A stretch of 64,000 nucleotides of DNA from Candidatus Wolfebacteria bacterium GW2011_GWA1_44_24. Its GTDB lineage: Bacteria; Patescibacteriota; Minisyncoccia; UBA6257; UBA9933. The DNA lies in assembly GCA_001001115.1 (NCBI GenBank), contig LCIO01000001.1, positions 236,339-300,338 on the forward strand, read 5' to 3'. A program made the translations under genes and the position numbers. The notes under the pieces were generated by a model. The model ran no database searches and had not been told where the DNA came from. It was given only the letters and a program-made list of their open reading frames with translations. Shown here one piece after another: positions 10,248 through 61,399 of this stretch (within the stretch, counting starts at the first letter, position 1; each line of letters begins with the position of its first letter).

Positions 10248-11363
10248 TTATTCAACAATTTCAAGAATTTCAAAATCAACATCGGCAATGCCATTCCCGT
10301 CATAATTAAGAAGAAAAATCGGCCGAATATAAACGGCGCCTGGATACATTTTACCCGGGTCGCCGGAACTCGGTTTACGCCCCCCGGCCGGCGTTCCATG
10401 CCCCTTAAAATAACCGGTAAAAATATCATAACCGGCTCCGGCAACCAAGGCGATGCCGTCAGCGGCAAAATAGTGCTGACTGGTATATGTATTATCCCCG
10501 GATTCATTAAGATAAGTTGTTTTATCCGAAGCTATTCCCGCTATGCCGCAATAAACAGAAGAAGGATTTTGAATTTGGCGAATTTTGCAAGAAATTTTAT
10601 ACAACGCGTTCGAATCAAAAGGAATATTTTCCTGCCACTCATACCACACAAATTGATTTGCGTTCAAATAATCTCCCTCGCTGTCGGCTCCCAACAAAAC
10701 CGTTCCCGACCCGATATTTTTATACCAACCCGGTTGGCCGGCCTTATTAACAACAACGGGGAAATCATTAAATGAAAAATTGGTTTTGCGATTAGGAGTT
10801 AAAAACAAATCGGTGCCAAGTTCATAAGCAATGGAATCGCCGCCGTCTCGCGAGACCCGAGAAAGATACTTCGTTGATTCCAACCATGCCGTCAATTCCC
10901 AACTCCCTCCCGCGACATAACTATAATAAAGATTGTTTTCCGCAATATTTATCGGGTCAACCGGTAAAACCGACAGCAAGGAGCCGATACTTAAAGAAGT
11001 TAAATCCACCGGAACCCATCCAAAACCATTGGTTTTACGATAATTATCCGGAGTTGAACAAGCATAATCCCAACCAAAAGGCAAAACAGGCAGATTTGAA
11101 TTAACGCAAGTCGGCGAAGTATCGGGGATTGAGACATAAACAATTGAAGAAGAGCCGAAATTGGCGCCGCCCTGAGAAAGATAAATGTTCAAAGCGGAAT
11201 TTAAAGAGTTAAGCTCCGATAATCTTTTTGAATCTCTGGTGTTTTTTAAAAGCTCTGAAGGATTTAAAACCAAAACTGTCGTTGTTGATAAAATCGCCAA
11301 AATGCCGATAACGATAAGAAGTTCGAGAAGCGTAAAAGATTTTTCGCCGTTGAATTGTTTCAT
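10248..11363 (-). CDS. Large type IV pilin/pseudopilin-like protein (prepilin-type N-terminal cleavage/methylation domain)
   Basis: N-terminus KSFTLLELLIVIGILAILSTTTV is the class III signal/N-methylation motif (G/FTLxE). 371 aa with a large C-terminal globular part. Confidence 0.75.
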   Translation of the reverse strand: MKQFNGEKSFTLLELLIVIGILAILSTTTVLVLNPSELLKNTRDSKRLSELNSLNSALNIYLSQGGANFGSSSIVYVSIPDTSPTCVNSNLPVLPFGWDYACSTPDNYRKTNGFGWVPVDLTSLSIGSLLSVLPVDPINIAENNLYYSYVAGGSWELTAWLESTKYLSRVSRDGGDSIAYELGTDLFLTPNRKTNFSFNDFPVVVNKAGQPGWYKNIGSGTVLLGADSEGDYLNANQFVWYEWQENIPFDSNALYKISCKIRQIQNPSSVYCGIAGIASDKTTYLNESGDNTYTSQHYFAADGIALVAGAGYDIFTGYFKGHGTPAGGRKPSSGDPGKMYPGAVYIRPIFLLNYDGNGIADVDFEILEIVE

Positions 11364-15133: not shown

Positions 15134-16427
15134 TTAACCAATCTATTAATCCGCTGATTTTTATTCTTTCTTGTTTCGTGGTATCGCGGTCGCGAACGGT
15201 AAGCGTATTGTCTTCCAGCGTTCGAAAATCAACCGTTAGACAATACGGCGTGCCGATTTCATCCTGCGAATAATAACGCTTGCCGATGTTGCCACGGTCG
15301 TCGTAAGCAACCATAAATTTTTTGCGCAAATCGTCGTAAATTTTTTTTGCCGAATTAACCAATTCCGGCTTGTTGGCCAAAAGCGGGAAAACCGCCGCCT
15401 TATAAGGAGCCAATTTCGCGTCTAGTTTCAAATAAATCCTTTCCCCTTCTTCCCGATAAGCGTCAATGAGTAAAAACAAAATAGAACGGTCGACTCCGGC
15501 TGAAGTTTCAATGTCCCAGGGAATATATTTCTCGTCGGTTTCCGGATCGCGATAACCCATATCAACGCCGGAAAATTTCTGGTGCCGCGACAAATCCCAA
15601 TCTCCGCGGTTATGAATGCCCATAAATTCCTGCCAGCCCCAGGGCGCGTTATATTCGATGTCAGTCGCGTCAATGGCGTAATGGGCGCGTTCGGTTTTTG
15701 CATGGTCGCGAAAACGCAGATTTTCCTTTCTCATTCCCAACGATAGATACCAATCCATCCTGTTATTTTTCCAGTATTCAAACCATTTTTCGCCCTCTTT
15801 TTCATCCGGCCTGATGTAAAACTGCACTTCCATTTGCTCGAATTCCCGCGAACGGAAAGTAAAATTGCCCGGCGTAATTTCATTGCGGAAAGCCTTGCCG
15901 ATTTGAGCGACGCCGAAAGGAATTTTCACCCTTGTCGAATCAAGAACATTTTTGAAATTAACATGAACGCCATTGGTGATTTCGCCACGAAGAAAAATTT
16001 CCGATTGTTCGCCTTCTACCACTCCCAAATACGCCTTGACCAGCAAATTAAATTGCCGCGGTTCAGTCCAGTCCGCTTTTTTGTCTTTGTGGATTTTTTC
16101 ATGATTTTTAATTTCTTCTTCCTTATCGGCCCGAATCCGCTGATGACAAATTTTACATTCAACCAATGGGTCGGCGAACGCTTTCAAATGGCCCGAAGCT
16201 TCCCAAGCTTTCGGATTCATCATAATCGCCGCATCGATGCCGACGATATCATCGCGGCGTTCCACCATATTTTCCCACCACAAATCCTTCAAATTTTTTT
16301 TAAGCAAGGCGCCGACCGGGCCGTAATCCCAGGTGCCGGCCAAACCGCCGTAAATTTCCGAGCCGGGAAAAATAAATCCCCGGCGCTTAGCCAAAGAAAC
16401 GATTTTATCCGTCAGATTATTTGTCAT
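15117..16427 (-). CDS. glyQS: Glycyl-tRNA synthetase (class II, dimeric GlyRS type)
   Basis: N-terminus RRGFIFPGSEIYGGLAGTWDYGPVG is diagnostic of α2-type GlyRS; 436 aa. Confidence 0.88.
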   Translation of the reverse strand: MTNNLTDKIVSLAKRRGFIFPGSEIYGGLAGTWDYGPVGALLKKNLKDLWWENMVERRDDIVGIDAAIMMNPKAWEASGHLKAFADPLVECKICHQRIRADKEEEIKNHEKIHKDKKADWTEPRQFNLLVKAYLGVVEGEQSEIFLRGEITNGVHVNFKNVLDSTRVKIPFGVAQIGKAFRNEITPGNFTFRSREFEQMEVQFYIRPDEKEGEKWFEYWKNNRMDWYLSLGMRKENLRFRDHAKTERAHYAIDATDIEYNAPWGWQEFMGIHNRGDWDLSRHQKFSGVDMGYRDPETDEKYIPWDIETSAGVDRSILFLLIDAYREEGERIYLKLDAKLAPYKAAVFPLLANKPELVNSAKKIYDDLRKKFMVAYDDRGNIGKRYYSQDEIGTPYCLTVDFRTLEDNTLTVRDRDTTKQERIKISGLIDWLNGKIQ

Positions 16428-18166
16428 TGGATTACTTGAGTATAATTCAAATCCAAACCGCTGTCTTTCAACGATTTGGTGCTAAGGGCTTCGGCGGCAA
16501 CATTCAATTCGACACCGGTAAATTCGTCAACGGCGGCGGCAATGGTCTGGCTGAGCAACGGAATTTCTTTTCCGACTTGAGTGATATTAGGCAAAACTTC
16601 TATTTGAAAAATCGCTTCAATTGGTTTTCCGATAATGCCTTTGGCGGCCGAAATTCTATCAATAGACCAATTAATCTCGCTTGTTCTTTCATTATAAATC
16701 GGCTGGGATGCGACGCTACTTTTAACAATATCTGTCAGCCGCGCCCCTGAAAGCAAACTAGCTTTAATATTTACATCCTTAACGTCTGTGGCGTAATTTT
16801 TAACGAGCCAATGAATGGTGAAATTAAGCGGCTGGTTGACTCTCGGCGGCAAAACGCCTTTATTGACAATACCCGACGGATCGCGGAAATAAACAGCGGG
16901 TTCAACGCTGATTTGTCCTCCAACTTTCGTTTCCAAACCGCTCAAGCCAATGGTTTTGTCGGCCGAAACGTAATAAGGCACAGTAGGCGAAGAAATTTCA
17001 GCTACGACTTTCAAAACAAAATTTTTATCGGACAACTTTTTAATGGGATAAAATTGTTTTGTTTTGATTTCGAACTCAGTGCCGGCGCTTGAACCGGCCG
17101 GCACCTGCCGAAGATTCGAAACATTGGCCGCGTTCCAGACTAAAATATTATTTCGAGAATTAAAAGAACCGCCGGTTTTCAAGGTCGGAAAATCAAATAT
17201 TTCTCCGTTCAACTGAGCGGTAATGACCGCATCGCTTAAAACAACATCGCTGTTATTTTGGTAAACAATCCGATATTTTAATAAATCTCCCGGCCAGGCG
17301 ATATAATTTTCCGTTTCATTCAAGATAATTTTCAGAGAAAGAGGCGAGGGCGCGATGTAAACGCTGGCGGCTTTTTCGGCAATCGCATACTTTTGGCCCC
17401 GATACGCCGTCTCAATTTGCGATTTGATTTCAAAAAACGACTGTTCAGGTCCGATGATTCTGCCTTTTAGGGAAATCTTAGCCTGGGCATTTTTCTCCAG
17501 CTCGCCGATTTCCAAAATATTGCCGGACAATTTCGGATTCGATTCTTTCAAGACAAAATTTTTCGGAAAAATAAAATTCAGTCGGGCACCGGAAAAATTG
17601 TTTTCCGAAATATTGGCGTAATTGACGATAATTTCAAATTCTTCGTTGTTTAAAACTTTTTCCGGAGCCGACAAATCAAGTTTTACGGCCGATTCCCGAA
17701 CCGACACTTCAACATTTTGTTTTTTCTCAAAACGAGCTTTTAAGGTTGAAACATAACCGACTGAAATATTAAAATTTTTCACACTGCCTTCTCCGGCGAC
17801 AATCAAAATCTGAAATTTATCTTTGAAAATCGCGTCCGGTTCCAAATCGTCGATTTTTTTGGAAAATACGCGTTTCTCTCCGCTTTCGCCCAAAATTATC
17901 GCGGATTCTGGCAAAAAAACGGAAAGATTGACGTCTTGAAGAGTATTCTTTGAACTATTGTCAAAATCAACCGACAAATCAAAAGGAACGCCGACCATCG
18001 CATTGGCCGGAACGGAAACCGAAAGATTAATTTCCCGTTCAGTGGAAAAATATTGATAAAGATAATAACCGCTGAAAGCAATCAATATTAAAACAAACGG
18101 CGTTAAAATCCAGAATAAAATCCGGCTGAAGCGGCTGATTTTGGAAATGATTATTCTTTCGGACAT
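16424..18166 (-). CDS. Hypothetical secreted/membrane-anchored protein (N-terminal TM, large β-rich ectodomain)
   Basis: 580 aa. Single N-terminal TM (ILFWILTPFVLILIAFSGYYLY), remainder hydrophilic and β-strand-rich. No recognisable catalytic motif. Confidence 0.5.
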   Translation of the reverse strand: MSERIIISKISRFSRILFWILTPFVLILIAFSGYYLYQYFSTEREINLSVSVPANAMVGVPFDLSVDFDNSSKNTLQDVNLSVFLPESAIILGESGEKRVFSKKIDDLEPDAIFKDKFQILIVAGEGSVKNFNISVGYVSTLKARFEKKQNVEVSVRESAVKLDLSAPEKVLNNEEFEIIVNYANISENNFSGARLNFIFPKNFVLKESNPKLSGNILEIGELEKNAQAKISLKGRIIGPEQSFFEIKSQIETAYRGQKYAIAEKAASVYIAPSPLSLKIILNETENYIAWPGDLLKYRIVYQNNSDVVLSDAVITAQLNGEIFDFPTLKTGGSFNSRNNILVWNAANVSNLRQVPAGSSAGTEFEIKTKQFYPIKKLSDKNFVLKVVAEISSPTVPYYVSADKTIGLSGLETKVGGQISVEPAVYFRDPSGIVNKGVLPPRVNQPLNFTIHWLVKNYATDVKDVNIKASLLSGARLTDIVKSSVASQPIYNERTSEINWSIDRISAAKGIIGKPIEAIFQIEVLPNITQVGKEIPLLSQTIAAAVDEFTGVELNVAAEALSTKSLKDSGLDLNYTQVIQ

Positions 18167-31247: not shown

Positions 31248-31276
31248 TTGACTTTCAATTTAGATTATGTTATAAA
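31248..31276 (+). promoter_or_regulatory. σ70-like promoter for the SPFH gene (TTGACT-17 nt-TATAAA)
   Basis: TTGACTttcaatttagattatgtTATAAA ~90 nt upstream of the SD AGGAGG and ATG at 31370. Confidence 0.5.
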
Positions 31277-31369
31277 TCTAATCAAGTTCTTTCACATAAA
31301 TAATATGGCGGAATTGAGATAAAAACAACTTAACTGGCCCCGCTAAACAAGGGCAAACAAGGAGGAAAT

Positions 31370-32626
31370 ATGGATATGGGAAAAAAAGAGTCGTTGCTGA
31401 AAGCGCTTAAAGGCTTCTGGCTCGCGCTTAAAGGATTCTGGCTCGCAATGGGCATAATCTGCTTAATCCTGTTTTCCGCCGATATCTGGTTATCCGGATA
31501 TTCAAATTCCACGACATTTCTTGGCGCGGAATGGAAATGGAATTGGGGGTTGGCGGCATTTTTAGCCCAATTGTTTTATGTCGTTGTAAGTTTCCGGATA
31601 GTCGGACCGACAGAACTCGGAGCGGTGCTTTTCTTCGGAAAACCTCTATATAACGTGAAGTCCGGGCTAAACCTCGTTCCGTTCCTTGTGTGTCGGTTAG
31701 TAAAGAATACAAGGAATATTATCGAGATTGAGCTTCCTACTAGGCCTGAACTAATATTCAGGTCGGAATTAGAAAAAGAAGAGGTTGTTCCAAAGGATCT
31801 TCTGGACAATGGATACAAACCTCCAATCAGGGTTCAATTTGGCGCGCCGGGAATTGAATTGAGCACAAAAGAACTCGAGTCTCAGCTCAACGATCCCAAT
31901 ATCATGGAAGATGAACGCAAAAGATTGGAGAGAATCAAAAAACTCTATGAGACTTTAAATAGGTTTATAGCAAACGAAAATATCCAAAACGATCCGCTAA
32001 ATGTCCGCATGACTGCGGAAACTCCTCTCACGGTTCGATTGAAAATCAAAAGCCTTGTTAGGTTTTTGATAACGTTCGATTCACTAGAGAAAGCAAAAGG
32101 CCAAATCCAAGATATCGCGGTAGCGATGCTTAACCGCGAATTTTCAAAAATCACTCCCGCGGTGGCTCAAGCTCATCTCGGAACGTTTAGTGAGCTCATC
32201 AAAGAGGAAATCGCCGAAAGAATAGAGAGCAATAAGGGTGATGGCGGCATAGAGATTGTGACTGTGCTTTTGCGTCCTTTTGGCTACAGTCACAAACTTA
32301 ACGCATCTCTTCAATCATTTGCCGAAGCGCGAGCGAAAAAGCGGGCAACGGTTATTGATGCCGAAGCTCAGAAAGAGAAAGATACGCTTGAAGGCGAAGG
32401 AAAAGGTGCCGCTGAAAAAGCTATTATTGATGGAAGGACTGAGGGGTTTAAAGGAATGATGGAAAAACTCGGAGTTTCTGCTCAAGAGGTGCTTGGAGCT
32501 GAAATCGCCAGAGAATTCGCTGTCAATCCCGGCCAAAAAACGGTTATCGTCGGTCAAAAAGGCTTTGCTGATGTTCTTGGCATTGCCGCTGCGATAGGCG
32601 AGACTTTCAAGGAGGGAGGAAAATGA
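31370..32626 (+). CDS. SPFH/band-7 (stomatin/flotillin/HflK-like) membrane-scaffold protein
   Basis: Strong SD (CAAGGAGGAAAT). N-terminal TM. SPFH core …VVSFRIVGPTELGAVLFFGK…NLVPFLVCRLVKNTRNIIEIELP… Long C-terminal coiled-coil/Ala-rich region. N-terminal tandem duplication LKALKGFWLALKGFWLA. Confidence 0.75.
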   Translation: MDMGKKESLLKALKGFWLALKGFWLAMGIICLILFSADIWLSGYSNSTTFLGAEWKWNWGLAAFLAQLFYVVVSFRIVGPTELGAVLFFGKPLYNVKSGLNLVPFLVCRLVKNTRNIIEIELPTRPELIFRSELEKEEVVPKDLLDNGYKPPIRVQFGAPGIELSTKELESQLNDPNIMEDERKRLERIKKLYETLNRFIANENIQNDPLNVRMTAETPLTVRLKIKSLVRFLITFDSLEKAKGQIQDIAVAMLNREFSKITPAVAQAHLGTFSELIKEEIAERIESNKGDGGIEIVTVLLRPFGYSHKLNASLQSFAEARAKKRATVIDAEAQKEKDTLEGEGKGAAEKAIIDGRTEGFKGMMEKLGVSAQEVLGAEIAREFAVNPGQKTVIVGQKGFADVLGIAAAIGETFKEGGK

Positions 32627-33132
32627 GACTGGAGTTAATAATCTTTTTCATCTTTCTTGCAAGCGCGATTGTACTTTTCGCGTGGAAAAAAATAGAAAAA
32701 GAGGTTGAGAAGCCACAAGAGAAAAAACCCGGAGGGCCACAGCCGCCATCACCTAGCCGGAAAAAAATCCACTTAGCTAATGGCGTTGGGCTGGCCATAA
32801 TAATCCTCGCCGCAGTTATCATCTACAAGATGGTCGGAGAGGAATGGTTTCAGCCGCGGACGGCAACGGCAATCCACAAAGTCTGGGTTTTAGACCAGAC
32901 TGTGACGGTGTCATCAAATGAGTGGGTAAATTTACCCATAAAGTTTGACGGCAAGGAGTATAAGTTTGCTCCGGACACGACATCGGCAGAGATTGAATTC
33001 GTTGCCGACGGCCGTTACGGAATCGCCGACAGCCGCACCCAGTTTGACTTCGGAGAAATCCGAAAGTCGCTGAAGGCTAGAGCAATAAAGGAAAAAGCGG
33101 TGGTTTATATGTATACCGCTAATCCTTCCTGA
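32623..33132 (+). CDS. Membrane protein translationally coupled to the SPFH gene (possible NfeD-like partner)
   Basis: ATGA overlap with upstream stop. Two hydrophobic segments separated by a Pro/Lys-rich linker. β-rich C-terminal domain. NfeD assignment is by gene context only. Confidence 0.45.
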   Translation: MRLELIIFFIFLASAIVLFAWKKIEKEVEKPQEKKPGGPQPPSPSRKKIHLANGVGLAIIILAAVIIYKMVGEEWFQPRTATAIHKVWVLDQTVTVSSNEWVNLPIKFDGKEYKFAPDTTSAEIEFVADGRYGIADSRTQFDFGEIRKSLKARAIKEKAVVYMYTANPS

Positions 33133-33149
33133 GAAGGTGATTTATTCAA

Positions 33150-33185
33150 AGCCGCGCAAGGATTTATCCAAGCGCGGCTGTTTTA
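33150..33185 (+). terminator. Rho-independent terminator
   Basis: AGCCGCGCAAGG-atttatcc-AAGCGCGGCT followed by GTTTTATTTT. Confidence 0.6.
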
Positions 33186-33250
33186 TTTTAAAATTATTTG
33201 TTATTATGAATATATTGATATTGGTTGAATTTAATTTATAATTTAATTGA

Positions 33251-33670
33251 ATGATTAAATCATTTTCCGGAAATAAATTTTTATATTTGATTGCGATATT
33301 TATCATTTTTTTAAACATTCTGTTTTTTATCGGTATTAATAATATATCAGCGGCGGAGCCTCCTCCCGGCGGCACAACATACACCACTCCCTCTAAAAGC
33401 GGCGGTTTATACGACCCCTTGGGGGGACAAACCATCACCAGTTTAATCCAAAATCTTATCGGGTTTCTCATTAAAATCGGCGCGCCTATCGTGGCTTTGA
33501 TGGTTTTATACGGCGGTTTTTTGATATTGACCGCCGGCGACAAACCCGAGCAGATTACCAAGGGAAAAAACACCATTCTTTACGCGGCTATTGGCTATAC
33601 AATTATCTTGTGTTCTTGGGGCGTTATTTATATAATTCAACAAGTACTGGGAGCGAAATTAATAAAATGA
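33251..33670 (+). CDS. Small secreted two-TM-helix protein, subfamily B (…YGGFLILTAG…); first gene of the tandem array
   Basis: Promoter TTGATA-16-TATAAT upstream. Signal peptide/anchor then AEPPPGG…, TM1 IGAPIVALMVLYGGFLILTAG, loop DKPEQITKGKN, TM2 TILYAAIGYTIILCSWGVIYII. Paralog of 35319..35708 (-). Confidence 0.7.
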   Translation: MIKSFSGNKFLYLIAIFIIFLNILFFIGINNISAAEPPPGGTTYTTPSKSGGLYDPLGGQTITSLIQNLIGFLIKIGAPIVALMVLYGGFLILTAGDKPEQITKGKNTILYAAIGYTIILCSWGVIYIIQQVLGAKLIK

Positions 33671-33999
33671 AAATCTTAAACAAAATTTCATTATTTTCAA
33701 CAATTTTTTATTTAATGGGCATTTTCCCATTAATTGGTTTTGCTCAAGAATCTCCCGTTAAAAGCATTGATGATGTAATGAATGTTTTAAAAAGCATTGT
33801 TAATGTGATGTACACGGCTTTCTTTATTGTGGCGATTATGTTTATAATCCTTGCGGCTTTTAATTATTTAACCGCCCAAGACGATCCGGAAAAAATCAAA
33901 AGCGCCACTCGCCAGATAATGTGGGCGGCGGTGGCGATAGCGGTGGCTTTAATTTCGGTAGGATTTAATAAAATTGTAGAAAGTTTTATAAAACCATAA
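33667..33999 (+). CDS. Small secreted two-TM-helix protein, subfamily A (…LAAF(N/T)YLTAQxDPEKIK…), array gene 2
   Basis: ATGA-coupled to gene 1. Signal peptide …PLIGFA|QE. TM1 …MYTAFFIVAIMFIILAAFNYLTAQDDPEKIKSATRQIMWAAVAIAVALISVGF. 56-nt stretch identical to gene 3. Confidence 0.7.
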   Translation: MKILNKISLFSTIFYLMGIFPLIGFAQESPVKSIDDVMNVLKSIVNVMYTAFFIVAIMFIILAAFNYLTAQDDPEKIKSATRQIMWAAVAIAVALISVGFNKIVESFIKP

Positions 34000-34461
34000 A
34001 TGTTTTTGAATATAAAAAAAATCTTTATTTTATTATTGATATTGGGAATTATTTTCCCGATTTTTTCATTTGCTGCGTTTCCTGTGGGAGAAGTTGCTGG
34101 GCCTGGAGGAAAATTACCAGAAGGCGCGGGAATTAAAGAAGTTTCTGATTTAGTTGGCATTCTTACAAAAGTTCTTGCGTGGATATATACAATTCTTTTT
34201 ATTATTGCGATTATATTCATCCTCATTGCCGCTTTCACTTATTTAACCGCTCAAGCGGACCCGGAAAAAATCAAAACTGCCACTCGCCAGATAATGTGGG
34301 CGGCGGTGGCGATAGCGGTGGCTTTAATTTCGGTGAGTATTAATGTGATAATAAGCAATTTTATAAGCCCAAGCGATAGTGGAGTTTTAGTAAATCCTAG
34401 CGGACAAAGTCCTTATTATTTAGATGTAGATCTTGGAATTTTCAATAAACCGCGAAAATAA
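34000..34461 (+). CDS. Small secreted two-TM-helix protein, subfamily A, array gene 3 (longest; extra C-terminal tail)
   Basis: Start codon immediately after the gene 2 stop. Signal peptide …IFSFA|AFPV. Conserved core IAAFTYLTAQADPEKIKTATRQIMWAAVAIAVALISV. Confidence 0.7.
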   Translation: MFLNIKKIFILLLILGIIFPIFSFAAFPVGEVAGPGGKLPEGAGIKEVSDLVGILTKVLAWIYTILFIIAIIFILIAAFTYLTAQADPEKIKTATRQIMWAAVAIAVALISVSINVIISNFISPSDSGVLVNPSGQSPYYLDVDLGIFNKPRK

Positions 34462-34467
34462 ATAAAG

Positions 34468-34836
34468 ATGAAAAAAGTTTTAATTTTATCAATATTTTTA
34501 TCAATATTTATTGCAAATAATTCTTTTGCCATAACTGCCGGAACAATTCCTTCAGCCGAGCAATTGGGCGTTTCTAACGCCCCGAAAATTGAAAAAGTTG
34601 ACACATTAGTTAATATTATTAGAAATATCGTAAAGTGGACATATATAATTTTCTTTATCGTGGCCGTATTTTTTATAATTTTAGCGGCTTTCACTTATTT
34701 AACCGCTCAAGCGGACCCAGAAAAAATCAAAACTGCCAATAAACAAATTCTTTACGCGGTTATCGCCATTGTTATCGCTCTTTTAGCCATCGGCTTTGAT
34801 ACGATAATAAAATCATTTCTGCAAAGCGGCGCTTGA
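34468..34836 (+). CDS. Small secreted two-TM-helix protein, subfamily A, array gene 4
   Basis: Signal peptide …NNSFA|ITAG. Core NIVKWTYIIFFIVAVFFIILAAFTYLTAQADPEKIKTANKQILYAVIAIVIALLAIGFDTII. Confidence 0.7.
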   Translation: MKKVLILSIFLSIFIANNSFAITAGTIPSAEQLGVSNAPKIEKVDTLVNIIRNIVKWTYIIFFIVAVFFIILAAFTYLTAQADPEKIKTANKQILYAVIAIVIALLAIGFDTIIKSFLQSGA

Positions 34837-34904
34837 TTGCTTTTTAGCTTGAATGTTTTAATATATTAATATGTATTGAAAAGGTCGCAAATGCTTATTT
34901 AATT

Positions 34905-35258
34905 ATGAAAACAAAAATTTTTATTATTGCCGCGGGATTATTGGCAGTTTCGGCAATCGCGGGAAATGTCGCTTTAGCGATTCAAATTCCGGGTATCAGT
35001 CAGGTCGGCCCCACATCGGTGACCGGAACAGTGGATGTGATTAAAAATATTGTTAAGTGGGTTTATATTCTATTCTTCATCATCGCCGTTCTTTTCATTA
35101 TTTTGGCGGCTTTCAATTATTTGACTGCCCAGGGCGACGAAGAAAAAGTCAAAACCGCGAAAAATCAGATTATTTACGCGGTAGTGGCGATTGTCGTGGC
35201 TTTGCTGGCCGTCAGTTTTGACACCATTATCAGCAATTTCCTGCAAAGCGGTCAATAA
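34905..35258 (+). CDS. Small secreted two-TM-helix protein, subfamily A, array gene 5
   Basis: Signal peptide …NVALA|IQIP. Core NIVKWVYILFFIIAVLFIILAAFNYLTAQGDEEKVKTAKNQIIYAVVAIVVALLAVSFDTII. Confidence 0.7.
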   Translation: MKTKIFIIAAGLLAVSAIAGNVALAIQIPGISQVGPTSVTGTVDVIKNIVKWVYILFFIIAVLFIILAAFNYLTAQGDEEKVKTAKNQIIYAVVAIVVALLAVSFDTIISNFLQSGQ

Positions 35259-35278
35259 ATTCTCAAAATTTTCCAAAC

Positions 35279-35316
35279 AAAAAACCCCGTTAGAATTTTC
35301 TATCGGGGTTTTTGTT
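35279..35316. terminator. Bidirectional terminator between convergent array genes
   Basis: AAAAACCCCG-ttagaattttctat-CGGGGTTTTT (A-run/T-run flanked). Confidence 0.5.
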
Positions 35317-35318
35317 TA

Positions 35319-35708
35319 TCAGCAGAATTTTCCCGCCTTTCCCCATTCCCAGGGCTTGAAGCTGCCTCCTCCTAAAATTTCTATAACTTCCCTAATAATC
35401 AGCCAGGCGCCCACGGCGATTAAAACGCCGATAATCGCCGATTGGATGATTTTCCGGCCTTGGGCCGCCCGTTCGGCCGATTCTCCGGCGGTCAATATTA
35501 CAAATCCGCCGTAAACAATGAAAATCACCGTAACGGGAATGGCGATGTTGTAAAGAGCGAAATTAATGACATTTTCAGCCAAAGTTTTCAGATGGCAAAA
35601 ATTGCACGCCGGTTCTCCGGCGCCGCCGCACGGCACAAGACCGGCGGCTTGAACAGCCATAACAGAAAACACGAAACAGAAAATGGAAAATAGAATTATT
35701 TTTTTCAT
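35319..35708 (-). CDS. Small secreted two-TM-helix protein, subfamily B (…YGGFVILTAG…), convergent with the array
   Basis: Signal peptide …AVQA|AGLVPCGG. Cys-rich N-terminus (CGGAGEPACNFC). TM1 IAIPVTVIFIVYGGFVILTAGESAERAAQGRK, TM2 IIQSAIIGVLIAVGAWLII. Paralog of 33251..33670. Confidence 0.7.
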   Translation of the reverse strand: MKKIILFSIFCFVFSVMAVQAAGLVPCGGAGEPACNFCHLKTLAENVINFALYNIAIPVTVIFIVYGGFVILTAGESAERAAQGRKIIQSAIIGVLIAVGAWLIIREVIEILGGGSFKPWEWGKAGKFC

Positions 35709-36998
35709 TTAAAGATTATTTATCTCGTTTTCGGCCTGTTCCAGCGCTTTTTCCGGCGACAATCTTCCGTTTAACACAGATTCTACCATATTGGAAAAAA
35801 TTTGTTTAACCGCGTTGTTGTCCGGCTGAAACCAGGATTTGGCGGTCAGAGTTTGATTAACAAATACTCCCAAGTCCGGGTCGTTTTGATATTTTTTGAA
35901 TAAATCTCTTAACGCCGGCGGCCGCTTTGACGCCAGAAGATACTGTTCGGCGATTTGATTATTGGCGGCAACGGAGATTATAAAATCCCACGCCAAAGCC
36001 GCGTTTTTGCTTTGATTAGAAACTGCCAAGCCCCAATAATCGGCGTAATTTACCGGCTTTTCTTTATTAAACTGAAGCATCGGCGCAACCGCCAAATTCA
36101 AAAAAGGATTTTTTGATTTAATAACCGGAATTGCCGAAGCATAATTCAAAATCGCGGCGGTTGTTTCCTGGCTGAAATTATCCAAAGAAGGCCGGAGGTT
36201 GTCGTTCCAGGTGTAATAAACGCTGGAAGGATTGCCGAATTGAAGATAAAAATTCAGGGCCTCAAGGCCGCCGGTTCTGGAAAAATTCGCTTGGCCGTTT
36301 TTATCGATCATTTCGGCGCCGAACTGAAACATCAATAAACTCAATAAATCGCCGGCCTTGTCAACGCTTTTTTCCGAACCGCCGATTGCCAAAGCCGCTT
36401 TGGCGATTTTGCCGCCGGAACCGATTTCTCTGAGCCGCGGAATCAGATATTTGAATTCATCCCAAGTTTTCGGCGCCACTGCCGCGCCTTTGACGTCAAA
36501 ATAATCTTTATTGTAAATCAGCGCGAGGGTATCAACATAAAGAGGCAAAGCGTAAATTCTGGCGGCGCTTGTAAAATCCTGCTCCGCCACTTGAGGGAAC
36601 AATTGGCGAAATCGGGCTAAAGAAATTTGCGTTTCAGCTGCCGGAAAAATTTTATTGTAATGTTTCGGCAGCCAACTATTGCGAAACATAAAAATATCCG
36701 GACCTTGACCGCTGGCCAAGGCGTCAACCAGAGAATCTTCAAAACTGTTTTCCGGAAATTGAGCGTAAGTTATTCTGACGCTCGGATTAATCTGGGAATA
36801 AGCGTCTATGGTTTGCCTCATTATCGTTTCATCTTCAATGCCCCAGAAAACGATTTCCGTTTGTTTTCCGCCGTAAAGGCCGCCGCCGGTTCCCGATTGC
36901 CTTAATCCCGGAAGGACGCCCAAAAGAATCAAAACGAAAAATAAAACCGCTGATCCGGCAATGCCAATAATAATTATTTGATTGCGGGTGAAATTCAT
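35709..36998 (-). CDS. ABC transporter extracellular solute-binding protein (family 1, sugar/oligosaccharide type)
   Basis: N-terminal TM anchor. 429 aa with SBP_bac_1-like composition (…IVFWG…DIFMF…W…). Confidence 0.6.
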
Positions 36999-39448
36999 AA
37001 AACAACTATTCCCGCCACCTTGTCTCCTTCTTTTAATCTCATTATTTTGACTCCGGAAGTGGCGCGGCCGCTGATTCTGACGCTGGAAATTTTTGTTCTG
37101 ATAATTTGGCCCTTAGCGGAAAGCGCCAATAATTCTTCTTCATCGCCGATAATCCGGGCGCTAACGACTTTTCCGGTTTTGCTTGTGACTTTGGCGGTTT
37201 TAATTCCCGAACCGCCGCGGCTTTGAACTTTATATTCTTTAAGCGCTGTTTGTTTGGCAAATCCGTTTTCCATCACCACTAATAGCCGCTGGTCGCTGGT
37301 TGCTGGTTGCTGGTCTTTTTTAATTATATCAATTCCAGCCACAAAATCACCGCCTTTCAACCTAATGGCCTTGACGCCGGCCGCTGTCCGGCCCGTTGGC
37401 CGCAATTGGCTTTCTTTGAATCTGATTGCCTGACCAAAAACGGTGGTTAAAATAATTTCGTCTTTCCCGGAAGAAAGCTTTGCCCACTTCAATTCGTCTC
37501 CCTTGGAAAGATTAATGGCAATGATGCCGCTTCGCCTGACATTGGAAAAATCTTCCAAAGATGTTTTTTTGATTATTCCGTTTTTCGTCGTCATTACCAA
37601 ATAGTTATCGGTTATTGATTGTTTGTTCTCGATTGAAGCGTAAGAAACTATGGCGCTGATGTTTTCCCCAGCCGGAATTTCCAAAAAATTCTGAATCAAT
37701 TTTCCTTTGGCCGTCCGGGAACCAACCGGGATTTCATAAACTTTGGTCTGAAACGCTTTCCCTTTGTCGGTGAAAAATAAAATATTGTCGTGGGTATCGG
37801 CGGAAATAAAATGGCTCAATAAATCTTCTTCCGCCACTTCTCCGCCAATCAACCCCTTGCCGCCGCGGCGCTGAGCCTTAAAAGTCGTCGGGGGAATTCT
37901 TTTAATATAGCCCGCGGCCGAGAGAGAAATAACCGCTTCTTCCTGCGGAATCAAATCTTCTTCTTTGAATTCTTTGAGTCCGGCAACGACAACTTTGGTC
38001 CGACGTTCATCGCCGTATTTTTTTTTCAGTTCCAAAAGTTCGTCTTTGATGACTTTTAATATCTTTTGCGGGCTTTTAAGAAGCGTCTCAAGGCCGGCAA
38101 TGAGTTTTCTTTTTTCTTTAAGTTCGTCTTCGATTTTTTGCCGTTCCAAAGCCGCCAAAGTCCTTAATTTCATTTCTAAAATCGCGGCGGCCTGGATATC
38201 GGTGAGTTTGAAATTTTTCACCAATTTTTGGTGGGCTTCTTCGCTGTCTTTTGATTTTTTGATGGTTTCGATAATTTTGTCGATTACCGAAAGCGCTTTA
38301 CTCAATCCTTCCAGAATATGAGCTCTTTCCTTGGCTTTTTTAAGGTCAAATTCCGCCCGCCTTTTCACCACTTCTCGGCGATGTTCGACATAAGCCAAAA
38401 GGATATCTTTAAGCGAAAAAAGCTGGGGCTGAATGCCCGCCGAAAGCGCTATCATGTTAAAATGAAAATCTTTTTGAAGGTCGGTATATTTATATAATTG
38501 ATTGAGGATTTTTTGCGCCAAAGCGTCGTTTTTGAGTTCAATAACGATTCGCAGGCCTTCGCGGTCGCTCTCGTCGCGGATATCGCGGATTCCTTCAATT
38601 CTTTTCTCTTGCGCCAGTCCGGCGATTTTTATAATCAGCTCGGATTTGTTCACCTGGTAGGGGATTTCCGTTATGACAATATCAAGCTGATTTTTGGCTC
38701 GCTCGACAATTTCCGCCTTGGCCCGAACAGTAACGGGGCCGCGGCCGGAAGCATAAACTTCGCCAATCGATTTTTTATCGTAGATAATTCCTCCGGTGGG
38801 AAAATCCGGACCCTGGACAAATCGCAATAAATCTTCAACAGCCGCTTTGGGGTTTTCAATCAGATGGATGACGGCGTCAACGATTTCATTCAGATTATGA
38901 GGCGGAATATTGGTGGCCATTCCCACGGCAATTCCCGAAACGCCGTTTAACAAAAGATTAGGAAGTCTTCCCGGCAAAACTTTCGGCTCGTTGCGGCTAA
39001 CGTCGTAATTGGGTTGCCAATCAACGGTTTCTTTCTCAATATCAAACAAGAGTTCTTCGCTAATTTTTGACAACCGCGCTTCGGTATATCTCATTGCCGC
39101 GGCCGCGTCGCCGTCAACGCTGCCAAAATTGCCCTGGCCGTCGATTAAAGGATAACGCAAGGAAAAATCCTGGGCCATTCTGACCAAGGCGTCGTAAATC
39201 GACATATCGCCGTGCGGATGATATCGGGCCATTGTCTGGCCGATAACATTGGCCGATTTTCTGAATTTGACATTTGCGGTCAAACCGTCATCCCACATTG
39301 CCCAGAGAATCCGCCTTTGAACCGGCTTCAATCCGTCCCGAACGTCGGGCAAGGCGCGGGAAACAATTACCGACATCGCATAATCAAGATACGACTCGCG
39401 AAGTTCATCGGTGATTTCCCGTTTTTCAATTTTTTCTGTTTTATCCAT
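36995..39448 (-). CDS. gyrA: DNA gyrase subunit A
   Basis: …[29 protein letters not shown]…, active-site Tyr region (AAAMRYTE), C-terminal β-pinwheel repeats. 817 aa. Confidence 0.93.
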
Positions 39449-44165: not shown

Positions 44166-44239
44166 GCGCCTGTAGCTCAGTTGGTCAGAGCGCCGAGCTT
44201 ATACCTCGGTGGTCCTTGGTTCGAATCCAAGCAGGCGCA
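44166..44239 (+). tRNA. tRNA-Ile (anticodon TAT; decodes AUA)
   Basis: GCGCCTG-TA-GCTCAGTTGGTCAGAGC-G-CCGAG-CTTATAC-CTCGG-TGGTC-CTTGG-TTCGAAT-CCAAG-CAGGCGC-A. Confidence 0.8.
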
Positions 44240-44243
44240 CCGC

Positions 44244-59525: not shown

Positions 59526-59672
59526 TCTGACCCTGTGGGCAAATTAGGAATTGTTTTTAGTTTTCGGACGATTCGGCTCCGGCTGGGTCTATCCTCGGAA
59601 CAATTCTTGACCTTGCGGGATTTATCTCCCGCGAGACTTTAACCAATGTGCCCACAGAGTCAGGCGGTTTTT
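59526..59672 (+). ncRNA. Candidate structured small RNA (~145 nt) closed by a 15-bp outer stem and followed by T7; class unknown
   Basis: Outer stem CTGACCCTGTGGGCA / TGCCCACAGAGTCAG. Inner stem GGAATTGTT / AACAATTC. Hairpin CTTGCGGGA-tttatc-TCCCGCGAG. 3' GGCGGTTTTTTA. Lies between the pilB stop and the ruvB start. No SRP RNA helix-8 motif seen. Confidence 0.4.
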
Positions 59673-61399
59673 TATTGCCACGCTATCGATCCGGTCGCCG
59701 ATTCCACTTCCTCAAAAGAAGTGAAGCCGGAAATTATTTTCAAAATACCATCCTGCTGCATAGTTACCATTTCCTGATTCAGGGCGAATCTTTCAATCGC
59801 TGATTCCGGAGCTCCGGCCAAAATCAAATCCTCCAACTCTTTACGAGAGGAAAGGTCGCGATGAGCCGGATTAATAAGCAATTTTTCATACTCCGGGTCG
59901 TTTAATAATAATTCATAAATTCCGATTCGGCCAAGATAACCGGAGTTATTACATTTTAAGCATCCTTTCGGCTGATAAATTTTAATTTCTTTGAAATTGT
60001 CCCGGCTGACTCTTCTCGGCAATTTATCAAAGAATTTCTCGATTTTGTTTTTAAGTTCGGGGTTGGTCTCTTGGGGACTTTTACAAAACCGGCACAAGCG
60101 GCGAACCAGTCTTTGGGCGATTATCAAATTCAGCGCCGGCCCGATGCTGGACGGCTTAACGCCCAAATCAAGCAGCCGAGGAACGACGCCCGAAGCCGAA
60201 TTGGCGTGAACCGTTGAAAAAACCAAATGTCCGGTCAGGGCGGCTTGAATACCGATTTCCGCTGTTTCTTTGTCGCGCATTTCGCCGACTAAAATAACGT
60301 CTGGGTCCTGACGCATTAAAGAACGTAAACCGTTGGCAAAAGTGTACCCCGCCCCTTCGTCAACCTGGGTCTGTTCAATCCCTTCCAAATGATACTCAAT
60401 CGGATCTTCAATGGCGATGATTTTTATGGTCGGGCTTTTTTTATATTTAAGGAAAGCGTAAAGGGTGGTGGTTTTGCCGGCGCCGGTCGGTCCGGCGTTT
60501 AAAATCATGCCGTTGGGCCTTTTCAATTCGGTTTTAATAATTTCTAAATCGTCTTCCCTGATCCCCAAATCCGACAGGGTTAAGTTGACGACTTCCGGGT
60601 CAAGCAAACGCATTACCGCCACTTCCCCGAATTCCGAAGGCGCGATCGCCACCCTGACTTCGATTTTTTTATCAGGGAAAGAAATGCTGAATCGGCCGTC
60701 TTGCGGTTTGTTGCGAATATTAATTTTCAGATCGGAAAGCAATTTGACGCGCGAAAGCAATCGGGAATAAAAATCGCGCCCAAAATTTTCAAACGCGTCG
60801 TGCAAAATGCCGTCAATTCTAATTCTTAATTTCACCCTATCTTCAAGCGGCTCAAAATGAACATCCGATGCCCGCAAGACAAGCGCGCCGAACAAAACAA
60901 TTTCAAAAATTTTGCCCAACTCATCATTAAGAAAATCAATTGAGCCAAGTGCTTCGGTAAAATTTTTAACCGAAACCAATTTCTCTTTAAGTTTTAAGAA
61001 TTTGTCCGTCTGAATTTCAATTTTGCCGGTGATTTGCTTTTGACGCTCGGAAATAAAGCGGTAAAAATCAAAAGCGCGGGAAAGGCCGCTTAAAGAAGCG
61101 GTAAAAAGCCGAATTTCAAACCCCTGGGACTTCAGTTTTTTAGTCAATTCTTTGACTAAAAACGAGTCGGGGTCCGCGGCCGCTATAAATAATTTTTTTT
61201 CTTTAATATCAACGGCAACAATTTGCGTCTTTTTGGCGATTTCCTTAGAAATCAATCCCAGCGCTTCAGTATTAATGGGTAAGGCCGACAAATCAATATA
61301 GGGATGGCCACTTTTTTGAGCTCTTCTTTGAGCGTCTCGCTCTTCGGCTTGGCGCCGCAAATTAGTCAATTTTTGCTGAAGATTAGAACCTGGCAACAT
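59672..61399 (-). CDS. pilB: Type IV pilus assembly / type II secretion ATPase PilB (GspE family)
   Basis: N-terminal T2SSE_N region. Walker A GPTGAGKTTT, Asp box, His box (…VHANSASG…), tetracysteine CxxC…CxxC. Start set at the internal Met (MLPGSNLQQKL); the ORF-track start at 61432 would overlap promoter-like TATATAATAT. Confidence 0.85.
   Translation of the reverse strand: MLPGSNLQQKLTNLRRQAEERDAQRRAQKSGHPYIDLSALPINTEALGLISKEIAKKTQIVAVDIKEKKLFIAAADPDSFLVKELTKKLKSQGFEIRLFTASLSGLSRAFDFYRFISERQKQITGKIEIQTDKFLKLKEKLVSVKNFTEALGSIDFLNDELGKIFEIVLFGALVLRASDVHFEPLEDRVKLRIRIDGILHDAFENFGRDFYSRLLSRVKLLSDLKINIRNKPQDGRFSISFPDKKIEVRVAIAPSEFGEVAVMRLLDPEVVNLTLSDLGIREDDLEIIKTELKRPNGMILNAGPTGAGKTTTLYAFLKYKKSPTIKIIAIEDPIEYHLEGIEQTQVDEGAGYTFANGLRSLMRQDPDVILVGEMRDKETAEIGIQAALTGHLVFSTVHANSASGVVPRLLDLGVKPSSIGPALNLIIAQRLVRRLCRFCKSPQETNPELKNKIEKFFDKLPRRVSRDNFKEIKIYQPKGCLKCNNSGYLGRIGIYELLLNDPEYEKLLINPAHRDLSSRKELEDLILAGAPESAIERFALNQEMVTMQQDGILKIISGFTSFEEVESATGSIAWQ

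What the first reader, a model, noticed from the sequence alone, without database searches (positions are those of the whole stretch)
31248..35708. SPFH/membrane-partner pair followed by a tandem, translationally coupled array of five hypervariable small secreted two-helix membrane proteins plus a convergent sixth paralog
Six genes (33251-35708) encode 117-153-aa proteins with the same architecture. Each has a Sec signal peptide with an A-x-A cleavage site and a variable 20-40-aa N-terminal segment. This is followed by a hydrophobic helix, a short charged loop (LTAQADPEKIK or LTAGDKPEQ) and a second hydrophobic helix. Two subfamilies exist: A (genes 2-5) and B (gene 1 and the convergent gene). 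In subfamily A the membrane core is near-identical while the exposed N-terminal part is completely different in each gene. Genes are packed with ATGA or TAA-ATG junctions (operon with translational coupling). The array sits directly downstream of an SPFH scaffold protein and its coupled membrane partner, and is bracketed by terminators. Topology and size fit VirB2/TrbC-type T-pilins (inference). No VirB4/VirB6 gene lies in the window, so this could instead be an unrecognised family of variable surface or bacteriocin-like proteins.
Basis: partly seen in the sequence, partly recalled or inferred. Interest (0 to 1): 0.78.

Follow-up and report, generated by a model that had tools for sequence, protein, structure and literature searches.

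The report
VirB2-like pilin gene array, Wolfebacteria
The six small genes are an array of VirB2-like "type IV secretion pilin" paralogs, a kind already described in ultrasmall Patescibacteria; what is less ordinary is that in this lineage the array always sits beside an SPFH scaffold gene pair and a solute-binding-protein gene rather than beside the secretion machinery.

Summary
The six genes are real, at 33251-35708. All six score above Pfam's curated cut-off for PF18895 (T4SS_pilin). UniRef already calls one of them "TrbC/VIRB2 family protein". The window comes from Candidatus Wolfebacteria bacterium GW2011_GWA2_42_10, from Rifle groundwater.

Tandem arrays of 2-11 divergent VirB2-like pilin genes in Patescibacteria were catalogued in 2025. 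One such array is essential in Ca. Southlakia epibionticum.

Several details need correcting:
- The paralogs fall into three ortholog classes, not two: A (g2-g5), B (g1) and a Cys-rich class C (g6).
- The class A cores are 51-70% identical, not near-identical.
- The N-terminal segments differ between paralogs but are conserved between orthologs in distant genomes, so they are not hypervariable.
- g6 is translationally coupled to gyrA-SBP.
- g1-g5 have their own promoter-like site, behind a terminator.

One point was not found in the literature searched. In 10 of 10 related contexts, an SPFH gene plus a fast-evolving membrane partner lies next to the array, in four different layouts.

No VirB4, VirB6 or VirD4 gene lies in the window or in the 10 kb beyond dnaA.

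Verdict: a new member of a known kind, of moderate interest.

The parts
31370..32626 (+). SPFH/Band_7 membrane scaffold protein (418 aa), stomatin-like, with an N-terminal TM region and a lineage-specific insertion
   Evidence: Pfam Band_7 30.7 bits against cut-off 23.6. A profile of 36 homologs hits stomatin 3bk6 at E 2.9e-10, then QmcA, HflK, prohibitin and flotillin. 73 homologs, almost all Patescibacteria.
32623..33132 (+). Partner membrane protein (169 aa), coupled to the SPFH gene by an ATGA overlap. It has two TM helices, a charged Pro-rich loop, and an extracytoplasmic beta-sandwich domain.
33150..33189 (+). Intrinsic-terminator-like hairpin plus U-run after the SPFH-partner pair
   Evidence: Free energy -20 kcal/mol, z -4.59, 0 of 200 shuffles as stable, followed by GUUUUAUUUU.
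33215..33242 (+). Promoter-like site TTGATA-16-TATAAT. Its -10 element ends 8 nt before the g1 ATG.
   Evidence: 11 of 12 consensus matches, the best site in the region; sequence read. A consensus match only; not shown to be functional.
33251..33670 (+). g1, class B VirB2-like pilin (139 aa; motif DPLGG...GAPIVALMVLYGGFLILTAGDKPEQ)
   Evidence: PF18895 44.8 bits. Orthologs are 50-63% identical in L006, L009, L010, L023 and L031.
33667..33999 (+). g2, class A pilin (110 aa), joined to g1 by an ATGA overlap
   Evidence: PF18895 29.6 bits. Ortholog L010_p2 is 66% identical. Named 'TrbC/VIRB2 family protein' in UniRef.
34000..34461 (+). g3, class A pilin (153 aa, with a C-terminal extension), joined to g2 by TAAATG
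   Evidence: PF18895 33.2 bits. Collinear orthologs L010_p3 (49%) and L031_p3.
34468..34836 (+). g4, class A pilin (122 aa)
   Evidence: PF18895 43.3 bits. Ortholog L031_p4 is 57% identical, and the N-terminal FAITAGxIP motif is conserved.
34905..35258 (+). g5, class A pilin (117 aa), the most conserved paralog
   Evidence: PF18895 47.4 bits. Orthologs are 64-68% identical in L031, L021 and L010, including the N-terminal IPGI..PT(S/T)V(S/T)GTVDVIKNIV segment. Modelled as a helical hairpin.
33904..33959 (+). 56-bp tract in g2 identical to 34279-34334 in g3. It is a gene-conversion tract and the crossover site of the g2::g3 chimera in L003.
   Evidence: Longest identical run, with all codons identical. 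The TM2 of g2 has the g3-type sequence, unlike g2 orthologs. Chimera mapped.
34231..34262 (+). 32-bp tract in g3 identical to 34687-34718 in g4
35275..35317 (.). Bidirectional terminator-like hairpin between the ends of g5 and g6
   Evidence: Free energy -20.6 (+) and -21.0 (-) kcal/mol, z -6.28 and -5.55, with flanking A/U runs.
35319..35708 (-). g6, class C Cys-rich VirB2-like pilin (129 aa; AAGLVPCGG..C..C plus a C-terminal Cys), translationally coupled to the SBP gene
   Evidence: PF18895 34.1 bits. TAAATG junction with the SBP gene. Class C orthologs always come first after the SBP gene in L006, L009, L021, L023, L024, L026, L030 and L031.
35709..36998 (-). Membrane-anchored SBP_bac_1 solute-binding protein (429 aa) with no adjacent ABC transporter genes. 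It overlaps gyrA by ATGA and abuts g6.
   Evidence: Pfam SBP_bac_1 90.6 bits. Junctions. SBP-to-pilin gaps of 0-3 nt recur in relatives.
36995..39448 (-). gyrA, first gene of the apparent gyrA-SBP-g6 transcription unit (context)
   Evidence: ORF. DNA_topoisoIV and DNA_gyraseA_C on the identical locus L001.

Best explanation
The six genes encode a fixed set of VirB2-like pilin-family proteins (Pfam PF18895) of a Wolfebacteria (Patescibacteria) genome: four of class A (g2-g5), one of class B (g1) and one Cys-rich class C (g6).

Inferred pathway: each protein is exported by Sec and cleaved by signal peptidase I after residue 21-34. It then sits in the cytoplasmic membrane as a two-helix hairpin, with a paralog-specific N-terminal segment outside the cell.

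By homology with the essential pilin array of the Ca. Southlakia T4SS, the subunits are most likely taken from this membrane pool by a monoderm-type T4SS encoded elsewhere in the genome. That machine would build a pilus-like surface structure or conduit used in the epibiotic lifestyle.

Each paralog is conserved between distant genomes and gene order is collinear. The set therefore looks like distinct structural subunits (major and minor), not a reservoir for antigenic variation.

Expression comes from two units: gyrA-SBP-g6, and a separate g1-g5 unit.

The adjacent SPFH protein and its partner are proposed to form a membrane microdomain or cage that holds or chaperones the pilin pool. This last step has the least support.

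Shown: family membership, architecture, orthology, the conserved neighbourhood, and the junctions and hairpins. Inferred: export, cleavage, polymerisation by a T4SS, and the SPFH role.
For: Family membership:
- All six proteins are above the PF18895 cut-off, with sub-threshold TrbC/VirB2 hits.
- There are near-threshold hits to the NCBIfam Mycoplasma ICE pilin-like conjugal transfer protein, 33-38 bits against 40.
- UniRef uses the name 'TrbC/VIRB2 family protein'.

Architecture:
- Signal-like segment plus two TM helices and a helical-hairpin model.

Literature:
- PF18895 and PF04956 pilins occur in 1,948 VirB4-positive Patescibacteria assemblies. 441 arrays of 2-11 genes are reported (PMC12102498).
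- The Southlakia PF18895 genes SEML1_0014-0019 lie next to VirB6 and are essential (PMC10633639; PMC12857230).

A fixed subunit set:
- Orthologs are 49-68% identical against 43-57% for class A paralogs, in collinear order across the window, L010 and L031.
- For scale, the window and L031 share GyrA 76%, S1 69% and SBP 62%.

SPFH link:
- An SPFH-partner pair lies next to the array in 10 of 10 distinct contexts. These have four layouts and at least six different outer flanks.

A relative, L006, carries a VirD4-like coupling protein about 10 kb from its array. Two other Wolfebacteria genomes are listed as VirB4-positive.
Against: - No VirB4, VirB6 or VirD4 lies in the 64-kb window or in the 10 kb beyond dnaA. 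Whether this genome has a T4SS at all could not be determined.
- TrbC/VirB2 (PF04956) scores are below its cut-off.
- A profile search of PDB sequences finds no solved pilin.
- No pilus made of PF18895 proteins has been seen in any organism (PMC12857230).
- The SPFH role rests on gene neighbourhood only.
- In Southlakia the single SPFH gene is far from the array.
- In Agrobacterium, SPFH mutants keep T4SS function (PMC8656257).
- In the window a terminator separates the SPFH pair from g1.
Confidence: 0.65

Rival explanations
1. The module is self-contained and independent of any T4SS. The SPFH cage, its beta-sandwich partner, the pilin-family hairpins and the orphan SBP would together form a membrane or surface apparatus of their own, for example an adhesion or uptake patch at the host contact site. 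In this lineage the Pfam name 'T4SS pilin' would then be misleading.
For: The array is detached from any T4SS gene across 74 kb. Its constant neighbours are the SPFH pair (10 of 10 contexts) and a tightly coupled SBP (9 of the 10). The fold and PDB sequence tests do not tie the proteins specifically to VirB2.
Against: PF18895 relatives in Saccharibacteria lie inside an essential T4SS cluster. Pilin genes sit away from virB4 in about 42% of assemblies anyway, since they are near it in 1,135 of 1,948. A relative has a VirD4-like gene 10 kb from its array, and other Wolfebacteria are VirB4-positive.
Confidence: 0.15
2. The array is a variation system, the reader's 'hypervariable' idea. Divergent pilin paralogs would be shuffled by recombination to change the exposed N-terminal part, for host-range switching or to escape phage or host defences. 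The multiple VirB2 paralogs of Bartonella and Anaplasma would be the analogy.
For: N-terminal segments differ strongly between paralogs, at 0-40% identity. Identical tracts of 56 bp and 32 bp between neighbouring paralogs indicate gene conversion. One assembly carries a g2::g3 chimera with its crossover inside the 56-bp tract. The 2025 paper itself suggests adaptation to different hosts.
Against: Every paralog is a complete gene with its own signal peptide, so there are no silent cassettes. Orthologs in distant genomes conserve the N-terminal segments and the gene order. Four independent assemblies are 100% identical across the array. The chimera occurs on one contig only, and a repeat collapsed during assembly would give the same sequence. 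The conversion tracts lie in the membrane core, not in the exposed part.
Confidence: 0.1
3. The SPFH adjacency is inherited synteny without function. The genes are ordinary VirB2-like pilins, and the SPFH pair is a housekeeping stomatin-like system, for example regulating FtsH, that happens to lie next to them in one clade.
For: Most contexts share gyrA-SBP on the other side of the array, so they come from related genomes. A terminator and a promoter-like site separate the pair from g1. SPFH proteins commonly act with FtsH, and ftsH lies 9 kb away.
Against: Adjacency survives an inversion, a change of side, and relocation to the MetRS / RNase P-YidC region. It holds with SPFH sequences as low as 25-38% identical, while the genes on the outer side of the SPFH pair differ in nearly every context.
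Confidence: 0.3

Closest known systems
VirB2-like pilin arrays of Patescibacteria (Quinonero-Coronel et al. 2025, PMC12102498; essential array SEML1_0014-0019 of Ca. Southlakia epibionticum, Wang et al. 2023, PMC10633639)
   Same: The same Pfam family (PF18895). Tandem genes for small proteins with a signal peptide and two helices. Low identity between members. A chromosomal location not far from dnaA, about 26 kb here.
   Different: This array is not inside or near a T4SS cluster. It is split into two convergent transcription units. It always neighbours an SPFH pair and an SBP gene, which those papers do not mention. Maximum paralog identity is 57%, against a reported maximum of 54%. [quoted passage not shown]
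VirB2/TrbC T-pilins of Gram-negative T4SS (Pfam PF04956; Agrobacterium VirB2, RP4 TrbC)
   Same: A cleavable N-terminal signal, two hydrophobic helices joined by a short charged loop, and a mature size of about 85-130 aa.
   Different: Scores are below the PF04956 cut-off. The signal peptides are shorter. There is no nearby VirB3 or VirB4 and no sign of a cyclase (TraF). The organism is a monoderm. Six distinct paralogs stand in place of one major pilin.
Mbov_0395 family pilin-like conjugal transfer protein of Mycoplasma ICEs (NCBIfam NF045849)
   Same: g2-g5 match over the whole 80-residue model at 33-38 bits, E 8e-10 to 3e-8. This fits the proposed monoderm (MPF-FATA) ancestry of the Patescibacterial T4SS.
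   Different: The scores are below the curated cut-off of 40 bits. The Mycoplasma gene is single and lies within an ICE.
SPFH-NfeD operons (stomatin-like protein with an NfeD partner), and HflK/C-FtsH
   Same: An SPFH-domain membrane protein translationally coupled to a small membrane partner, with stomatin as the closest solved relative.
   Different: The partner has no NfeD domain. It models as a jelly-roll beta-sandwich, not an OB-fold. The pair is linked to a pilin array, not to a protease.
Multiple VirB2 paralogs of Bartonella and Anaplasma T4SS
   Same: Tandem amplification of divergent pilin genes.
   Different: Those are interpreted as antigenic or host-interaction variation. Here the paralogs are individually conserved across genomes.

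Membership tests
Pfam PF18895 T4SS_pilin | HMM score at or above the gathering cut-off (26.6 bits) | tested here: met
   g1 44.8, g2 29.6, g3 33.2, g4 43.3, g5 47.4 and g6 34.1 bits. The precomputed Pfam labels on the identical public contigs agree.
Pfam PF18895 T4SS_pilin | Small protein with an N-terminal signal and two hydrophobic helices around a short polar loop | tested here: met
   Hydropathy segments, (-3,-1) cleavage candidates, and the AlphaFold hairpin 39-74 / 79-116. No dedicated signal-peptide predictor was available.
Patescibacterial VirB2-like pilin array (PMC12102498) | Two or more pilin genes in tandem, or separated by one non-pilin gene | tested here: met
   Five genes in tandem plus one convergent gene, with no intervening gene.
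Patescibacterial VirB2-like pilin array (PMC12102498) | Strong divergence between members (reported mean 25%, maximum 54% identity) | tested here: met
   21-57% full-length identity, slightly above the reported maximum for g4/g5.
Patescibacterial T4SS locus | Pilin genes in the neighbourhood of virB4 and other T4SS genes | tested here: not met
   No VirB4, VirB6 or VirD4 domain in any sizeable ORF of the window, nor within 10 kb beyond dnaA. The paper finds this proximity in only 1,135 of 1,948 assemblies, so it is not obligatory.
Patescibacterial T4SS locus | VirB4 encoded somewhere in the same genome | not testable with these tools
   The contig is 382,930 bp, and only about 74 kb could be read. 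The genome is absent from the stored part of the paper's Table S1.
VirB2/TrbC pilin (Pfam PF04956) | HMM score at or above the gathering cut-off (27.9 bits) | tested here: not met
   Best scores are 21.0 (g2), 18.7 (g1), 17.4 (g5) and 13.6 (g6) bits. g3 and g4 gave no hit.
VirB2/TrbC pilin (Pfam PF04956) | Fold matching solved conjugative pilins (VirB2, TraA, TrwL) | tested here: inconclusive
VirB2/TrbC pilin (Pfam PF04956) | Polymerises into an extracellular pilus with bound lipid | not testable with these tools
   Needs microscopy or biochemistry. It has not yet been shown for any PF18895 protein.
SPFH/Band_7 superfamily (upstream gene) | SPFH domain | tested here: met
   Band_7 30.7 bits against 23.6. 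The profile hits stomatin, QmcA, HflK, prohibitin and flotillin.
SPFH-NfeD operon | Partner carries an NfeD domain (C-terminal OB-fold) | tested here: not met
Antigenic-variation cassette system (e.g. pilE/pilS type) | Silent partial cassettes plus one expression locus, with fast-evolving exposed parts | tested here: not met
   All six are complete genes with start codon and signal peptide. Orthologs conserve the exposed segments.
Class II bacteriocin-type secreted peptide | Double-glycine or Sec leader on a soluble peptide, with an adjacent ABC exporter or immunity gene | tested here: not met
   The mature proteins keep two TM helices. The neighbours are the SPFH pair, SBP and gyrA. No PADLOC hits.

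The most novel reading that the evidence does not exclude
In the Wolfebacteria-related clade, the SPFH protein, its beta-sandwich partner, a fixed hexad of VirB2-family hairpin proteins (classes C, B and four A) and an orphan membrane-anchored solute-binding protein form one conserved module. The SPFH cage would organise the pilin-family subunits. This would be either a dedicated pilin-handling step that no known T4SS has, or a T4SS-independent contact or uptake apparatus built from co-opted pilin proteins.
Probability: 0.2. Interest if true: 0.7.

Novelty: new member of a known kind. Interest (0 to 1): 0.35.

Why it matters
Patescibacteria make up a large share of uncultivated bacterial diversity. 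They appear to live attached to host cells. Their T4SS and its pilin array are among the few systems shown to be essential for that lifestyle, yet no one knows what the pilin-like proteins build.

This locus adds no new kind of element, but it gives two testable pointers.

First, in this clade the paralogs are individually conserved and collinear. That argues for a hetero-oligomeric structure with specialised subunits, not for antigenic variation.

Second, the array is constantly accompanied by an SPFH scaffold pair and a coupled solute-binding protein. These are candidate partners for the membrane stage of pilin handling or for the function of the structure. If the SPFH link is functional, it would be, as far as the literature searched here shows, the first SPFH system found genetically linked to a pilin array.

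Tried and rejected
- The search for related loci on genome contigs with an SPFH alignment: patterns were too degenerate, and only one relevant locus came back. On metagenome contigs only three loci came back.
- Profile search of PDB sequences with the pilin alignment: only chance hits.
- phmmer of the single SPFH sequence against the PDB: nothing. The profile search worked.
- Homolog search for the partner: only 3 hits, so its model is based on a shallow alignment.
- PADLOC: no defence-system match for the SPFH, partner, pilins or SBP. A defence reading was rejected.
- Supplement searches for GW2011_GWA2_42_10 in the 2025 paper: not in the stored part, so the VirB4 status of this genome stays unknown.
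- NfeD identity of the partner: rejected.
- Bacteriocin and antigenic-cassette readings: rejected (see the membership tests).
- The g2::g3 chimera as proof of shuffling: downgraded. It occurs on one contig only, and a repeat collapsed during assembly would give the same sequence.

Full report
OBSERVATION

- g1 33251-33670 (+)
- g2 33667-33999 (+)
- g3 34000-34461 (+)
- g4 34468-34836 (+)
- g5 34905-35258 (+)
- g6 35319-35708 (-)

Each protein starts with two Lys/Arg and a 12-16-residue uncharged run. Each has a (-3,-1) cleavage candidate: ISA|A, GFA|Q, SFA|A, SFA|I, ALA|I and VQA|A. Two further hydrophobic helices follow, flanking a short charged loop. An AlphaFold model of g5 built on 73 sequences gives a signal helix at 3-23, a disordered linker, and a hairpin of helices 39-74 and 79-116 at pLDDT about 85.

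Junctions are ATGA (g1/g2), TAAATG (g2/g3), a 6-nt spacer (g3/g4) and a 68-nt spacer (g4/g5).

A stable hairpin with a U-run lies at 33150-33189, between the SPFH partner gene and g1. A bidirectional hairpin lies at 35275-35317, between g5 and g6. Both fold much better than shuffles, at z -4.6 and -6.3/-5.6. A near-consensus promoter-like site, TTGATA-16-TATAAT at 33215-33242, precedes g1.

- g2 is 110 aa.
- Only one site is a strict A-x-A.
- Only two junctions are tight.
- The class A cores are 51-70% identical, not near-identical.

WHAT IT IS

[quoted passage not shown] Four give weak TrbC/VirB2 hits. g2-g5 nearly reach the NCBIfam model for a pilin-like conjugal transfer protein of Mycoplasma ICEs.

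Exact look-ups place the window in Candidatus Wolfebacteria bacterium GW2011_GWA2_42_10, locus tags UU85_C0004G0035-0041, from Rifle groundwater. UniRef already names g2 'TrbC/VIRB2 family protein'.

The family is very large. A profile search of 1.84 billion representative proteins returns 59,536 hits at E<=1e-3.

The literature describes this kind of locus directly:
- Quinonero-Coronel et al. 2025 used PF18895 and PF04956 to find VirB2-like pilins in 1,948 VirB4-positive Patescibacteria assemblies. They report 441 arrays of 2-11 pilin genes.
- Wang et al. 2023 showed that the series of pilin genes inside the T4SS cluster of Ca. Southlakia epibionticum is essential.

CONTEXT

The window is ordinary chromosome. 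It holds ClpB, MetRS, RecA, FtsK, GyrA, FtsH, RNase J, RuvB, a PilB-like ATPase and DnaA. No ORF carries a VirB4, VirB6 or VirD4 domain. The 10 kb beyond dnaA in the source genome also lack them. A local HMM finds no seventh pilin. I could not establish whether the rest of the 383-kb contig or genome encodes a T4SS. A related genome has a VirD4-like gene about 10 kb from its array. Two other Wolfebacteria are listed as VirB4-positive.

WHAT THE COMPARISON WITH RELATIVES ADDS

I read ten distinct Pfam-annotated contexts. They were reached from pilin homologs and from SPFH homologs that are 31-100% identical.

First, the paralogs fall into three ortholog classes:
- Class A carries YLTAQxDPEKIK (g2-g5).
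- Class B carries DPLGG...YGGFLILTAGD (g1).
- Class C is Cys-rich, with AAGLVPCGG..C..C and a C-terminal Cys (g6).

Second, the window's g1-g5 have collinear orthologs in L010 and L031:
- g1: 50-51%
- g2: 53-66%
- g3: 45-49%
- g4: 45-57%
- g5: 64-68%

For g5, g2 and g1 these values exceed the paralog's identity to any of its neighbours in the array (43-57% within class A, 21-31% between classes). For g3 and g4 they are comparable, and orthology there rests on the collinear order and shared N-terminal motifs.

The supposedly variable N-terminal segments are conserved within each ortholog group. For scale, the window and L031 share 76% in GyrA, 69% in S1 and 62% in the SBP. The paralogs are therefore old and individually constrained, and 'hypervariable' does not describe them. 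This fits a set of specialised subunits better than antigenic variation.

Third, class C is always the first gene after a membrane-anchored SBP_bac_1 gene, with gaps of 0-3 nt. In the window the SBP stop and the g6 start form TAAATG, and the SBP gene overlaps gyrA by ATGA. So g6 is not an oddly placed convergent paralog. It is the member that is co-transcribed with gyrA-SBP.

Fourth, a Band_7/SPFH gene coupled to a small partner with no Pfam match lies next to the array in all ten contexts, in four layouts:
- gyrA>SBP>C>SPFH>partner>B>A4 (L031)
- the same, with the SPFH-to-g5 block inverted (the window)
- gyrA>SBP>C>B>An convergent on partner<SPFH (L006, L009, L021, L023, L024, L026, L030)
- MetRS>SPFH>partner>B>A..>RNase P (L010, L032)

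The genes on the outer side of the SPFH pair differ in nearly every case. The SPFH sequences themselves drop to 25-38% identity.

The SPFH protein is stomatin-like by profile. The partner has two TM helices and an extracytoplasmic jelly-roll-like domain, and it is not NfeD. It evolves fast.

The three Patescibacteria T4SS papers do not mention an SPFH link. No paper in the library combines SPFH, pilin and Patescibacteria. In Southlakia the only SPFH gene is far from the array. The link is therefore specific to this lineage.

DYNAMICS

g2 and g3 share a 56-bp tract that is identical even at synonymous sites (33904-33959 = 34279-34334). g3 and g4 share a 32-bp identical tract. g4 and g5 are uniformly 70-80% identical at the DNA level. 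The TM2 of the window's g2 has the g3-type sequence, unlike g2 orthologs, which indicates gene conversion.

One assembly (L003) carries a single 139-aa g2::g3 chimera. Its crossover maps inside the 56-bp tract, and exactly 375 bp are lost. The rest of that contig is about 99.9% identical to the window. However, the chimera is seen on one contig only, while the intact genes are seen on 18 or more. A repeat collapsed during assembly would give the same sequence, so the chimera is not yet evidence of shuffling.

MECHANISM

The most likely mechanism runs as follows. Sec exports each protein and signal peptidase I cleaves it. The mature hairpin is stored in the membrane. A monoderm-type T4SS encoded elsewhere then assembles the subunits into a pilus-like structure or conduit at the host contact.

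The six subunits would have distinct roles. The SPFH-partner complex may organise the membrane pool. The coupled SBP has an unknown but probably related role.

Family membership, architecture, orthology and neighbourhood are shown. Export, cleavage, polymerisation and the SPFH role are inferred.

There is precedent for SPFH proteins around secretion systems, but it is mixed. The Agrobacterium T4SS sits in SPFH-marked detergent-resistant membranes without needing the SPFH proteins. That paper also cites a Helicobacter pylori SPFH mutant with reduced T4SS-dependent CagA translocation, and reduced T7SS secretion in Staphylococcus aureus lacking the flotillin FloA (PMC8656257).

VERDICT

This is a new member of a known kind.

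The added value is threefold: the three-class ortholog structure, the evidence against hypervariability, and the conserved SPFH-partner and SBP linkage.

Interest is 0.35. The most novel reading not excluded is a conserved SPFH-organised module, possibly independent of a T4SS, at probability about 0.2.

Noticed in passing
window 35709-36998 (-), with gyrA 36995-39448 (-): An orphan membrane-anchored SBP_bac_1 solute-binding protein with no ABC permease or ATPase gene nearby. It sits between gyrA (ATGA overlap) and the class C pilin g6 (TAAATG). The same SBP-to-class-C coupling, with gaps of 0-3 nt, recurs in L006, L021, L024, L026, L030 and L031. The function of this pairing is unexplained.
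   Followed up: partly
proteins P0197 (606 aa, 7 stretches), P0200 (820 aa, 8), P0198, P0201, P0253 and others: Many database proteins contain 2-8 consecutive PF18895-like units in one polypeptide. They could be true fusions, or tandem arrays read through in lineages with a reassigned stop codon, or gene-calling artefacts.
   Followed up: no
L010 11237-11743, L011 8246-8752, L032 9405-9887: A conserved 160-168-aa non-pilin gene sits inside the array in the MetRS / RNase P layout. It begins MKKIAAIGFVCLIVLVVGCAAH, which looks like a lipoprotein signal. It has no Pfam hit.
   Followed up: partly
L006 1-1487: In a relative, a VirD4-like coupling protein (T4SS-DNA_transf, TrwB_AAD_bind, TraG-D_C) and a DUF8128 protein lie about 10 kb from the pilin array. 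The window has FtsH and RNase J at the corresponding side.
   Followed up: no
L031 17614-19577; L032 18450-18785: bAvd / 23S_rRNA_IVP genes, which are accessory proteins of diversity-generating retroelements, lie next to type IV pilus genes 7-9 kb downstream of the pilin array in two relatives. They are not present in the window.
   Followed up: no
window 59672-61432 (-) and 10248-11363 (-): A PilB-like T2SSE ATPase lies directly upstream of dnaA and divergent from it. A separate 371-aa protein carries a prepilin N-methylation motif. These are type IV pilus components, distinct from the T4SS-type pilins of the finding.
   Followed up: no
window 33237-33253: The -10 element of the best promoter-like site ends only 8 nt before the g1 ATG. 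If that site is used, the g1-g5 mRNA would be essentially leaderless.
   Followed up: no
L021/L022 4827-5762: A tyrosine recombinase (Phage_integrase) gene lies immediately upstream of the SPFH gene in one relative. This could relate to the rearrangements seen around the module.
   Followed up: no
window 1092-4499 (-) and 16424-18166 (-): Two large proteins with almost no annotation. One is 1,135 aa, with only a peptidoglycan-binding domain. The other is 580 aa, with a weak transglutaminase C-terminal Ig-like hit. They may be surface proteins.
   Followed up: no
window 44166-44241 (+): A tRNA-Ile with anticodon UAU, immediately after ftsH.
   Followed up: no
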